A stretch of DNA of 58,107 nt from a virus (taxonomy: Duplodnaviria; Caudoviricetes): positions 1 to 58,107 of IMG/VR virus record IMGVR_UViG_3300020021_000013; one strand, 5' to 3'. How positions within the stretch are numbered: the stretch's first letter is position 1; every line of letters starts with the position of its first letter. Positions 40,401 through 41,749 of this stretch are shown here, one piece after another. Made by a program: the position numbers and the translations under genes. Under the pieces are notes generated by a model. That model saw nothing but the letters and a program-made list of their open reading frames with translations, had not been told where the DNA came from and made no database searches.

Positions 40401-40520
40401 TACCCCTACCTAACCTTGCCCGACCCTGCCACGCCATGCCCTGCCGAACCAGACCGAACCCGGCCCGACCACGCCTGACCACACCCTGCCCTTCCTGACC
40501 CGACCGCTCCACACCAGGCC
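40401..40520 (-). ncRNA. Array 1: 24 phased GG(Y)NN pentamers (candidate guide RNA)
   Basis: GG at every fifth position for 120 bp; third base Y in 21/24 (two GGA, final GGG); NN variable; fills the intergenic gap. Confidence 0.85.
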
Positions 40521-40524
40521 ACAT

Positions 40525-41007
40525 CTATTCGGCGGTACGGCCCTCCAGGGCGCGCAGCCGCTGCTCATGATCGGCAACCTTAGCCATCGTCTGGTCCATC
40601 GCGTTCGCGAGTACGACGAGCGCGGCCTGAACGCGCACGGTGTCGCGTCGCTCGTCGTCCGGCATGGCTGTCAGGTCGGCAGCGCGGACCACAGCAACAG
40701 CGTTGCCGAGCTGACGACGCGACTTGCGGCGGTATGCAACAGCTTGGGCTACGTGCTCCCCGGCTCTAAGCATCCGGTAACCGACACCCTTAATGGACTC
40801 CATGGAGCGCTCATCTTTGGCCCACAGCTCGCGATTGGCCCGCTGGACGGCACGGTACATCCGTGACCGATCCTCGGTCTCCAGCGCGGCCAGCAGCTTG
40901 TCCGACTCCACGGTGTCGGTCGGCTGCATGTCGCGGAAGATGTCATAGACCACGCGCCAGTCACTGCGGCCGTCGGGGCGCGAGGGGCGGAACAGGTCTC
41001 CCATCAC
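40525..41007 (-). CDS. Winged-helix/coiled-coil accessory protein of the array cassette
   Basis: 160 aa; helix then SIKGVGYR wing motif; C-terminal DHEQRLRALE coiled coil; overlaps the stop of the upstream gene. Confidence 0.65.
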   Translation of the reverse strand: MMGDLFRPSRPDGRSDWRVVYDIFRDMQPTDTVESDKLLAALETEDRSRMYRAVQRANRELWAKDERSMESIKGVGYRMLRAGEHVAQAVAYRRKSRRQLGNAVAVVRAADLTAMPDDERRDTVRVQAALVVLANAMDQTMAKVADHEQRLRALEGRTAE

Positions 41008-41588
41008 TGCTCCCGAACGTTCTTAGCCGCGAAAGAGAACCGACCCATGCCGATGCGGCGGCCATCGAGCAGGCCGACCGCGCGACCCGCCATCTCGGCG
41101 ACCGACACGAAGGTGTCCCAGTCCATGATCTCGGTGTTGAGCACGAAGTCGACTTCCAGGCTCCAGCTCTGGAACTGCGGCCGGATGCGCAGGACGCGGT
41201 TGCGGTTAACGCCAACCATGCGGCTGTCACGCATGTTCGCGGCCCACATGCCATCCGGATCACGGGGTCCGTCGTACTGCAAGGGGGCAACCACAGTCTC
41301 GGCGGCTAGGGCCTGCTCAGTTGCCTTACCGAGCCTACGCACGGTTCCCGCCGTGGCGAAGCAGCGAATCACGGCCCATGTCTGCACGAACGGGCCGACG
41401 CTACCCGCGTAGTACAGGCCGCCCTCCCATTCGAGGCGGGAGCGCAGCGCGATGTCGTCGTCGGTCAGCTTCTTCTTTTCGTTGATGGCCTTGATGCGCT
41501 TCGTGTAGTCCCCCGTGGGGTCCGCCAGCCGCTCGTTATGCATGAGCAACGGAGTCTTGCCGTCCAAGACTGCGGTGAATTCCTTCAT
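41004..41588 (-). CDS. RAMP/Cas7-like protein (candidate Vipr-type effector), 194 aa
   Basis: ATG 41588 after GGAGGAGGAG; N-term strand LDGKTPLLMH, GLY...GPFV helix, RIRPQF..W, C-terminal Gly-rich loop AGRAVGLLDGRRIGMGRF; flanked by GGYNN arrays. Confidence 0.72.
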   Translation of the reverse strand: MKEFTAVLDGKTPLLMHNERLADPTGDYTKRIKAINEKKKLTDDDIALRSRLEWEGGLYYAGSVGPFVQTWAVIRCFATAGTVRRLGKATEQALAAETVVAPLQYDGPRDPDGMWAANMRDSRMVGVNRNRVLRIRPQFQSWSLEVDFVLNTEIMDWDTFVSVAEMAGRAVGLLDGRRIGMGRFSFAAKNVREQ

Positions 41589-41611
41589 GTGCTCCTCCTC
41601 CAAGGATATGA

Positions 41612-41656
41612 AGCCCCTGCCCAGCCCTGCCCAGCCCTTCCCTGCCCGACCAGGCC
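41612..41656 (-). ncRNA. Array 2: 9 phased GG(Y)NN pentamers
   Basis: GGCCT GGTCG GGCAG GGAAG GGCTG GGCAG GGCTG GGCAG GGGCT directly upstream of the RAMP-like gene RBS. Confidence 0.75.
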
Positions 41657-41682
41657 GAACATGGAGACTCTAGCATTGCCTG

Positions 41683-41749
41683 GCGACTCTCGGCGAGTCG
41701 CGCGGTGCCCAGGGGTTGCCCGGCCGCCCGGCACTCGGGCAACCCCTGG
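41683..41749. promoter_or_regulatory. Two hairpins between terS and array 2
   Basis: 14-bp perfect CCAGGGGTTGCCCG/CGGGCAACCCCTGG (41709-41749); 7-bp GCGACTC/GAGTCGC (41683-41701). Confidence 0.6.

What the first reader, a model, noticed from the sequence alone, without database searches (positions are those of the whole stretch)
40401..41749. Candidate RNA-guided system: RAMP/Cas7-like protein, wHTH partner and GG(Y)NN pentamer arrays inserted between terS and terL
Seen, in minus-strand order: terS, hairpins, 9-unit array, 194-aa gene, 160-aa gene, 24-unit array, terL. The 194-aa protein has an N-terminal G.TPLLMH strand and a C-terminal Gly-rich loop (GRAVGLLDGRRIGMGRF), the hallmarks of RAMP/Cas7 proteins, yet no other cas gene or CRISPR array is present. 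Both arrays hold GG fixed every 5 nt, start with GGCCT and end with a GGG unit. Inference: the protein polymerises on the array RNA, one subunit per pentamer, gripping GGY and displaying NN, so the target is read discontinuously. With no nuclease in the cassette, the likely output is transcriptional silencing of a competing phage or host gene. This fits my recollection of recently reported VIPR systems (not verified here).
Basis: partly seen in the sequence, partly recalled or inferred. Interest (0 to 1): 0.96.

Follow-up and report, generated by a model that had tools for sequence, protein, structure and literature searches.

The report
VIPR RNA-guided silencing system in phage

Summary
On the minus strand lie terS, a strong hairpin, a 9-unit GGNNN array (41656..41612), a 194-aa gene, a 159/160-aa gene, a 24-unit array (40520..40401) and terL.

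Same-strand GGYNN arrays flank vipr homologues in 23 of 24 loci examined. VIPR was published in 2026 (bioRxiv 10.64898/2026.04.26.720920 and three further papers), so this is a new member of a known kind.

Points particular to this locus:
- It sits between terS and terL.
- Its 24 uninterrupted units exceed the 9-16 reported for the studied clades.
- It has no structured 3' tail or processing element.
- The likely terL ribosome-binding site lies inside the last repeat units.

No target was found under the published 1-nt-skip rule, and no RNA data exist.

The parts
41760..42500 (-). terS-like gene (246 aa), upstream neighbour of the cassette
   Evidence: phrog_6299 terminase small subunit, E 3.5e-19
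41701..41755 (-). Strong G+C-rich hairpin just after terS. It has no T-run. It may be a terminator or attenuator that separates terS from the cassette.
   Evidence: Fold of 41770..41690: -57.3 kcal/mol, z -4.5, 0 of 200 shuffles as stable. Function is inferred.
41667..41672 (-). TAGAGT hexamer (TANNNT type) 10 nt upstream of array 1; a candidate -10 box for the cassette transcript
   Evidence: Read from the sequence. The sigma-70 consensus scan found no promoter in 40200..42000, so this is inference only.
41612..41656 (-). vrRNA array 1: 9 GGNNN units (7 GGY, one GGAAG, terminal GGGCT). It ends 23 nt before the vipr ATG.
   Evidence: Meets the published caller's rule of at least 4 GG[C/T]NN units.
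41004..41588 (-). vipr: 194-aa Vipr protein (minimal Cas7-like RAMP)
40525..41004 (-). vap-like accessory gene (159 aa from the ATG that overlaps the vipr stop; 160 aa from GTG at 41007). N-terminal winged-helix-like domain plus C-terminal helical hairpin.
40401..40520 (-). vrRNA array 2: 24 uninterrupted GGNNN units (21 GGY; GGAGC, GGAAG and terminal GGGTA). It starts 4 nt after the vap stop and ends 6 nt before the terL ATG.
38976..40394 (-). terL (472 aa), downstream neighbour. Its only purine-rich Shine-Dalgarno-like stretch lies in the last two units of array 2.
   Evidence: Terminase_6N/6C, phrog_2. Spacing read.

Best explanation
The cassette at 41672..40401 (minus strand) is a complete VIPR (Viral Interference Programmable Repeat) system carried by a 58-kb high-G+C tailed phage from soil. 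It consists of vipr, a vap-like DNA-binding accessory gene and two vrRNA arrays.

By homology with the SUSP1 and P. fulva systems, the arrays are transcribed with the genes. Vipr protomers polymerise along the RNA, one per pentamer. Each GGY is flipped into protein pockets and each NN dinucleotide is presented. The filament then pairs with double-stranded DNA that carries the same NN dinucleotides separated by one skipped base. There is no nuclease gene in the cassette, so the bound filament blocks transcription.

The likely target is a competing phage, prophage or satellite of the same host, as reported for the studied clades. The target of this particular system is not identified.

Shown here: the anatomy, the homology, the fold and the co-occurrence of arrays with vipr in relatives.

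Inferred: transcription, filament assembly, the skip rule, silencing and the kind of target.
For: (1) Direct sequence match to the solved SUSP1 Vipr: E 1.8e-18 over residues 5-186. tblastn finds 129 phage records, 128 of them covering at least 80% of the protein, including SUSP1 at 30.5% identity.

(2) Residues named as contacts in 10.64898/2026.04.26.720927 align to identical residues: H17, K33, R138->R136, D177->D175, R179->R177, G87, K88. H17, R136, R177 and G87 are invariant, and D175 nearly so, in 16 homologues.

(4) The two arrays show GG in 33 of 33 units and Y in 28 of 33, far beyond shuffles.

(5) Vipr homologues carry same-strand GGYNN arrays in 6 of 6 GenBank phage loci and 17 of 18 IMG/VR loci: 78 arrays on the vipr strand against 4 on the other. 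In those arrays, positions 4 and 5 have 1.98 and 2.00 bits of entropy, while position 1 is G in 95%, position 2 is G in 88% and position 3 is Y in 89%.

(6) The partner gene is conserved beside vipr and has a winged-helix-like N-terminal domain. This matches the published description of vap genes in nuclease-free types as predicted DNA binders.

(7) The context is viral: portal, major head, tape measure and terminase genes. The tool itself treats the record as a virus record.

(8) There is no self-target: best 26 of 48 at 1-nt skip, against a shuffled-guide mean of 25.9 and maximum of 28. The paper reports the same for natural systems.
Against: No expression or binding data exist for this locus.

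No target was found. Five scans with 10-unit windows of array 2 gave 0 exact matches. The 22 hits of 8-unit seeds did not extend beyond 28 of 48. These scans only detect long perfect stretches, so a target at the published threshold of 80% NN match could have been missed.

Some SUSP1 contact residues differ: W178->G176, K82->T82, E71/M72->W71/A72. The position after the G-loop Asp varies among homologues.

Array 2 has 24 units, whereas 9-16 are described for the studied clades.

Neither array is followed by a significantly structured tail: z +0.9 and +1.9, and z -0.8 and +1.0. That is also true of most high-G+C relatives, where only 16 of 78 tails reach z < -1.5.

The vap similarity to SUSP1 vap1 is weak (E 0.006 in a pairwise comparison).
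Confidence: 0.92

Rival explanations
1. In addition to guiding, or instead of it, the arrays act in cis on the phage's own late operon. Vipr coating of array 2 would hide the terL ribosome-binding site, and coating of array 1 would sit just upstream of the vipr site. Vipr loading would then tune terminase and Vipr synthesis.
For: Array 2 ends 6 nt before the terL ATG, and the only Shine-Dalgarno-like purine run lies in its last two units. Array 2 starts 4 nt after the vap stop, which leaves no room for a separate promoter or terminator. The terL message must therefore carry at least the 3' part of the array. In the solved complexes the G bases are buried in protein.
Against: No data support it. 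A tight junction between an array and the next gene's ribosome-binding site also occurs in relative L009, so it may only reflect compact phage genomes. Published VIPR function is in trans. None of the 24 relatives' loci has a homologue of this phage's terL or terS within 3-4 kb of vipr, so the arrangement is not conserved.
Confidence: 0.08
2. The cassette is a decaying or silent remnant: the genes are intact but the arrays are no longer used, or the protein no longer binds them.
For: No target was found. There is no structured tail. W178 of SUSP1 Vipr is Gly here.
Against: Both ORFs are intact and overlap stop-to-start. GG is perfect in 33 of 33 units, which is better than the 95% and 88% seen in relatives. 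The residues that bind G1 and G2 by hydrogen bond or salt bridge are kept. Close relatives of both proteins exist elsewhere at 91% identity for the partner.
Confidence: 0.04
3. The repeats are a chance or compositional feature of a G+C-rich intergenic region, for example G-quadruplex-prone DNA or a packaging site between terS and terL, and have nothing to do with the neighbouring protein.
For: The location between the terminase genes is where pac or cos sites are often found (general knowledge of tailed phages; not tested here). The window has 67% G+C.
Against: The longest run in 200 shuffles was 7 units, against 24 and 9 observed. The same repeat type flanks homologues of the protein in 23 of 24 loci and on the same strand in 78 of 82 arrays, in genomes where vipr is not next to terminase genes. 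The protein matches a solved vrRNA-binding protein.
Confidence: 0.01

Closest known systems
Escherichia phage SUSP1 VIPR system (type II in bioRxiv 10.64898/2026.04.26.720920; structures in 10.64898/2026.04.26.720927; PDB 36pp)
   Same: The Vipr protein has the same length and domain order, at 30.5% identity over 95%. The gene order is the same: array, vipr, small accessory gene, array(s), all on one strand. The repeat units are GGYNN and the arrays end in a GGG unit. There is no nuclease gene.
   Different: SUSP1 has four vrRNAs of 7-16 units by my scan. Each has a structured tail (z -2.1 to -3.7), reported to be a pseudoknot, and its own upstream repeated motif. Here there are two arrays of 9 and 24 units, with no significant tail structure and no room for a separate promoter before array 2. 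SUSP1 carries the system among replication genes (ligase, polymerase); here it lies between terS and terL. W178, K82 and E71/M72 are not conserved. The host is E. coli for SUSP1 and an unknown high-G+C soil bacterium here.
Unannotated vipr-vap pairs of actinophages: Mycobacterium phages prophiBWHA-1 (gp43/42) and LittleE (gp34/33), Gordonia phages MakoManhole (gp78/77) and Trine (gp41)
   Same: These are the closest sequenced phage homologues of both proteins: Vipr 36-41% identity, partner 29-31%. They have same-strand GGYNN arrays with GGG or GGA terminal units.
   Different: Their arrays are followed 26-41 nt downstream by a T-loop motif within a tRNA-like minihelix, which the window lacks. 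They sit in other genome neighbourhoods: immunity region, replication genes, tail genes.
Cas7-family backbone subunits of class 1 CRISPR effectors (Csm3, Cmr4, Cas7-11, type VII Cas7)
   Different: About 10% identity. There is no CRISPR repeat-spacer array and no Rfam CRISPR repeat. No other RAMP or cas gene lies in the cassette. Guide information sits in 2 of every 5 nt rather than in a contiguous spacer. The system is virus-borne.

Membership tests
VIPR system (Vipr + vrRNA) | Protein homologous to characterised Vipr proteins | tested here: met
   phmmer against PDB: 36pp_D 'SUSP1 Vipr protein', E 1.8e-18, 70 bits, near full length. tblastn hits SUSP1 at 2e-16.
VIPR system (Vipr + vrRNA) | Residues that hold G1, G2 and Y3 and the DNA strands in the SUSP1 structure | tested here: met
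   Identical: H17, K33, R136 (=R138), D175 (=D177), R177 (=R179), G87, K88. R39 is K39. Not kept: W178->G, K82->T, E71/M72->W/A. Mostly met.
VIPR system (Vipr + vrRNA) | Tandem GG[C/T]NN units (at least 4) next to vipr on the same strand | tested here: met
   9 and 24 units; GG in 33 of 33, Y in 28 of 33. Caller rules.
VIPR system (Vipr + vrRNA) | NN hypervariable while GGY is conserved across related systems | tested here: met
   1079 units from 24 homologous loci: entropy 1.98 and 2.00 bits at positions 4 and 5, against 0.36, 0.70 and 1.17 at positions 1-3. Near-identical relatives of this locus could not be fetched, so the test is at family level only.
VIPR system (Vipr + vrRNA) | Adjacent vap accessory gene with predicted DNA interaction | tested here: met
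VIPR system (Vipr + vrRNA) | Conserved structured 3' tail after the repeat tract | tested here: inconclusive
   Tails of the window's arrays: z +0.9 and +1.9, -0.8 and +1.0. The paper ties the pseudoknot to the SUSP1 clade only. 62 of 78 tails in relatives are also not significant by this crude test.
VIPR system (Vipr + vrRNA) | vrRNAs are transcribed and co-purify with Vipr | not testable with these tools
   Needs small-RNA sequencing and pull-down.
VIPR system (Vipr + vrRNA) | Natural target matching the NN-x-NN (1-nt skip) image of a guide at 80% NN identity or more | tested here: inconclusive
   No target in the phage itself. No extending match in the viral, metagenome or genome collections using exact seeds. 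Mismatch-tolerant scans of those collections were not possible.
VIPR type II (SUSP1 / P. fulva type) | Position in the Vipr phylogeny, vap1 association and array architecture as defined in Fig. 5A and data S4 of the paper | not testable with these tools
   The classification data are in figures and supplements that I could not see. The direct sequence match to SUSP1 Vipr, a nuclease-free DNA-binder partner and the array-genes-array layout are compatible with type II.
CRISPR-Cas class 1 | Repeat-spacer CRISPR array and further cas genes (adaptation module, large and small subunits) | tested here: not met
   No CRISPR repeat family at gathering score in the window. No repeat-spacer array by TRF. 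The cassette holds two genes only. No PADLOC or NCBIfam model hits either protein. Not all ORFs of the window were scanned.

The most novel reading that the evidence does not exclude
The 24-unit array is a single extra-long, tail-less guide with a footprint of about 70 bp. Its ends would be set by units with a purine at position 3. It would also double as the 5' leader of terL. Vipr loading on the nascent late transcript would then decide between releasing a guide RNA and translating the large terminase, tying inter-phage warfare to the timing of DNA packaging.
Probability: 0.07. Interest if true: 0.6.

Novelty: new member of a known kind. Interest (0 to 1): 0.3.

Why it matters
The locus shows that a reader working from raw sequence alone can recognise a VIPR system. 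It also adds a high-G+C soil-phage example to a family studied so far in E. coli and Pseudomonas phages.

Three features could inform how vrRNA ends are made and how long a guide can be: no tail, ribozyme or tRNA-like element; 24 uninterrupted units; and an array fused to the terL translation start. None of the Pfam, NCBIfam or PADLOC copies searched here recognises Vipr or its partner, so such loci are still annotated as hypothetical proteins.

It does not open a new question. The mechanism and biology were published in 2026.

Tried and rejected
Target search by the published 1-nt-skip rule.
- 10-unit windows of array 2 gave 0 matches in viral contigs (units 7-16 and 14-23), in metagenome contigs (units 9-18 and 14-23) and in genome contigs (units 7-16).
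- 8-unit seeds gave 4, 15 and 3 viral hits. None extended beyond 28 of 48 NN positions, so they are chance hits.
- The first 8 units of array 1 gave 105 viral hits. Only 7 of 105 also match the ninth unit (about 1 in 16 is expected by chance). Their loci have a median G+C of 0.44, and most of the translations printed for the two wobble frames contain stop codons (not counted). I rejected them as compositional.
- These scans need perfect stretches, so they do not exclude a target.

RNA evidence: no RNA holder listed. The two runs listed are DNA from a soil metagenome that may be the source of the contig.

Complex prediction of three Vipr copies: no answer.

Close relatives in genomes: the search for related loci in genome contigs found no relative. 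Megablast of 38900..42600 against the phage collection found no match.

Rfam: no family in 40300..41800 at E<0.2, so no hammerhead or other known ribozyme. No Rfam match at E<=1 to the tRNA-like elements in L001-L004.

The profile of the partner protein found no solved relative by sequence.

The two 5-unit GG runs at 50667..50610 are not an array. Read, they are the reverse complement of a Pro/Thr-rich linker in a plus-strand ORF with a lipoprotein-like N-terminus.

Full report
**What is there**

The window is the whole record held for this genome: 58,107 bp in one contig. It is treated as a virus record and has 67% G+C. Its minus strand carries a tailed-phage late module. The genes are:
- a terS-like gene at 42500..41760 (phrog_6299, 3.5e-19);
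- terL at 40394..38976 (Terminase_6N/6C);
- portal at 33401..31302 (phrog_776, 1e-155);
- a head-morphogenesis protein;
- major head protein at 15500..13620 (phrog_777, 1e-118);
- tape measure at 5521..3122.

Between terS and terL, all on the minus strand, lie:
- a very stable hairpin at about 41755..41701 (-57.3 kcal/mol, z -4.5);
- a 9-unit pentamer array at 41656..41612;
- a 194-aa ORF at 41588..41004, preceded by a strong ribosome-binding site;
- a 159-aa ORF whose ATG overlaps the stop of the first (41004..40525; 160 aa from GTG at 41007);
- a 24-unit array at 40520..40401, which starts 4 nt after that gene's stop and ends 6 nt before the terL ATG.

**Is it more than chance?**

GG occupies the first two positions in 33 of 33 units. 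The third position is C or T in 28 of 33. The exceptions are GGAAG twice, GGAGC once, and the two terminal units GGGCT and GGGTA. In 200 shuffles of the window, the longest run of GG at 5-nt spacing on either strand was 7 units, seen once; 23 shuffles reached 6 and 141 reached 5. Both arrays begin with GGCCT.

**What the proteins are**

Pfam, NCBIfam and PADLOC give nothing significant for either protein. PHROGs gives only families of unknown function.

The 194-aa protein matches the PDB chain 36pp_D, named 'SUSP1 Vipr protein', at E 1.8e-18 over residues 5-186 against 5-187. The structure paper (10.64898/2026.04.26.720927; I read the abstract and the first part of Results) names the residues that hold the repeat. 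In the alignment they compare as follows:
- H17 and D177 hold G1. They align to H17 and D175 here.
- R138 and W178 hold G2. R138 aligns to R136; W178 is Gly here.
- R179 helps hold the pyrimidine. It aligns to R177.
- K33 and R39 contact the skipped base and the non-target strand. K33 is kept and R39 is Lys.
- K82, G87 and K88 contact the non-target strand. G87 and K88 are kept; K82 is Thr.
- E71/M72 are Trp/Ala here.

In an alignment with 15 IMG/VR homologues, H17, R136, R177 and G87 are invariant and D175 nearly so. The position after the Asp varies.

**The partner protein**

The partner has 19 homologues in the large protein collection, none with a Pfam domain or an informative name. It is homologous to the gene immediately downstream of vipr in three phages:
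- Gordonia phage MakoManhole, where it is annotated 'DNA binding protein';
- Mycobacterium phage prophiBWHA-1;
- Mycobacterium phage LittleE.

It also matches a gene beside the arrays in IMG/VR locus L009 (6e-16).

**Do relatives carry arrays?**

tblastn finds the protein in 129 phage records, mostly Felixounavirus and Suspvirus phages of enterobacteria. A few are from Mycobacterium, Gordonia and Pseudomonas phages.

Same-strand GGYNN arrays flank the gene in 6 of 6 GenBank loci and in 17 of 18 IMG/VR loci. The exception, L021, ends about 200 nt after the gene.

Over the 24 loci there are 78 arrays on the vipr strand and 4 on the other strand. In their 1079 units, position 1 is G in 95%, position 2 is G in 88% and position 3 is a pyrimidine in 89%. 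Positions 4 and 5 are fully variable, at 1.98 and 2.00 bits.

**Comparison with the literature**

VIPR systems were reported in 2026. The library holds four papers on them.

The discovery paper (10.64898/2026.04.26.720920; I read Results, Discussion and Methods sections 18, 20, 26 and 27, plus legend passages) describes the following:
- a two-gene locus (vipr, vap) without cas genes or a CRISPR array, mostly in viruses and proviruses;
- vrRNAs of 9-16 YNNGG repeats with a 3' tail;
- recognition of double-stranded DNA by the NN dinucleotides with one skipped base;
- transcriptional repression;
- natural targets in satellites and prophages;
- seven types, some with nucleases.

The present locus meets every defining feature I could test; see the membership table. 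The direct match to SUSP1 Vipr (type II), a nuclease-free partner and the array-genes-array order are compatible with type II.

**How it most likely works**

By homology, the cassette is transcribed rightwards on the minus strand. The start may be a TAGAGT hexamer 10 nt before array 1, but that is inference: the consensus scan found no sigma-70-type promoter. Vipr then coats each array one protomer per unit, the NN dinucleotides pair with a gapped target, and transcription of a competitor's gene is blocked. The partner protein may assist, as vap1 does in SUSP1.

The phage does not target itself. The best match is 26 of 48 positions, no better than shuffled guides. The paper reports the same for natural systems.

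**What is particular here**

(a) Placement in the packaging operon. None of the 24 relatives' loci has a homologue of this terS or terL within 3-4 kb. In named phages the system sits in immunity, replication or tail regions.

(b) Array 2 has 24 uninterrupted units. The studied clades have 9-16, but relatives such as L009 also have 19-25 units.

(c) No recognisable processing element. There is no significant tail structure, no Rfam ribozyme and no tRNA-like element. Most high-G+C relatives also lack significant tails by my crude test: only 16 of 78 reach z < -1.5. All four SUSP1 tails and all three LESphi2 tails are significant.

(d) The end of array 2 overlaps the likely terL ribosome-binding site. 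The terL message must therefore contain array sequence. How a guide is released without harming terL expression is unexplained. A cis-regulatory role is possible but unsupported.

**Targets**

Using the published rule I scanned for exact images of parts of array 2 and of array 1 in the viral, metagenome and genome collections. I found nothing that extends beyond chance. These scans require 8-10 consecutive perfect units. The collections may also lack the host's mobile elements. The target therefore remains unknown, not absent.

**Verdict**

It is a new, uncharacterised member with a few unusual local features. It is not a new kind of system.

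Noticed in passing
L002 3540-3842 (Gordonia phage Trine); also L001 2896, L003 3004 and 3122, L004 2771, 2906 and 4370: In the four actinophage relatives, each GGYNN array is followed 26-41 nt downstream by the T-loop motif GGTTCGA. The motif sits inside an acceptor-like stem plus T-arm minihelix. 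The stems differ between phages but stay paired, and ARAGORN calls one of them a tRNA of unknown identity. This suggests that vrRNA 3' ends in this clade are cut by tRNA-processing enzymes. There is no Rfam hit at E<=1. No paper in the library holds both 'vrRNA' and 'tRNA-like', and 'tRNA' does not occur in the main text of the discovery paper; supplements were not visible. The window's own arrays lack this element.
   Followed up: partly
window 41612-41616 and 40401-40405; arrays in L001-L024: Units with a purine at position 3 (GGA or GGG) are the last unit in 38 of 78 arrays of relatives, although purines fill only about 10% of all position-3 sites. Both window arrays end this way. The published pyrimidine pocket excludes purines, so such units may mark where the filament stops. 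GGAAG also occurs inside both window arrays, at units 4 and 6, after similar 5' sequences.
   Followed up: partly
L002 3573-4376: The annotated CDS gp40 of Gordonia phage Trine overlaps the vrRNA arrays and tRNA-like elements. At least its 5' part is probably a mis-annotation.
   Followed up: no
window 35117-37528 (minus strand): Four tRNA genes lie between terL and the portal gene: two tRNA-Leu, one with an irregular anticodon loop, and an 88-nt tRNA with anticodon UCA, which would read the TGA stop codon (ARAGORN labels it SeC). TGA ends terS and vipr in this phage. An exact 25-bp tandem duplication lies beside them at 37386-37435.
   Followed up: no
window 24738-29057 (minus strand): A 1439-aa protein just downstream of the head-morphogenesis gene ends in a domain matching a PHROG family labelled ADP-ribosyltransferase exoenzyme toxin (residues 1277-1436, 1e-19). 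It may be a virion-associated enzyme.
   Followed up: no
window 50610-50667 (minus strand): Two 5-unit runs of GG at 5-nt spacing are the reverse complement of a Pro/Thr-rich linker in a plus-strand ORF with a lipoprotein-like N-terminus (read). They are not a vrRNA array.
   Followed up: yes
window 44065-45731 (minus strand): Two adjacent ParB-like genes (phrog_1033 at 2.4e-11; phrog_4715 at 1.2e-8) lie upstream of the packaging module.
   Followed up: no
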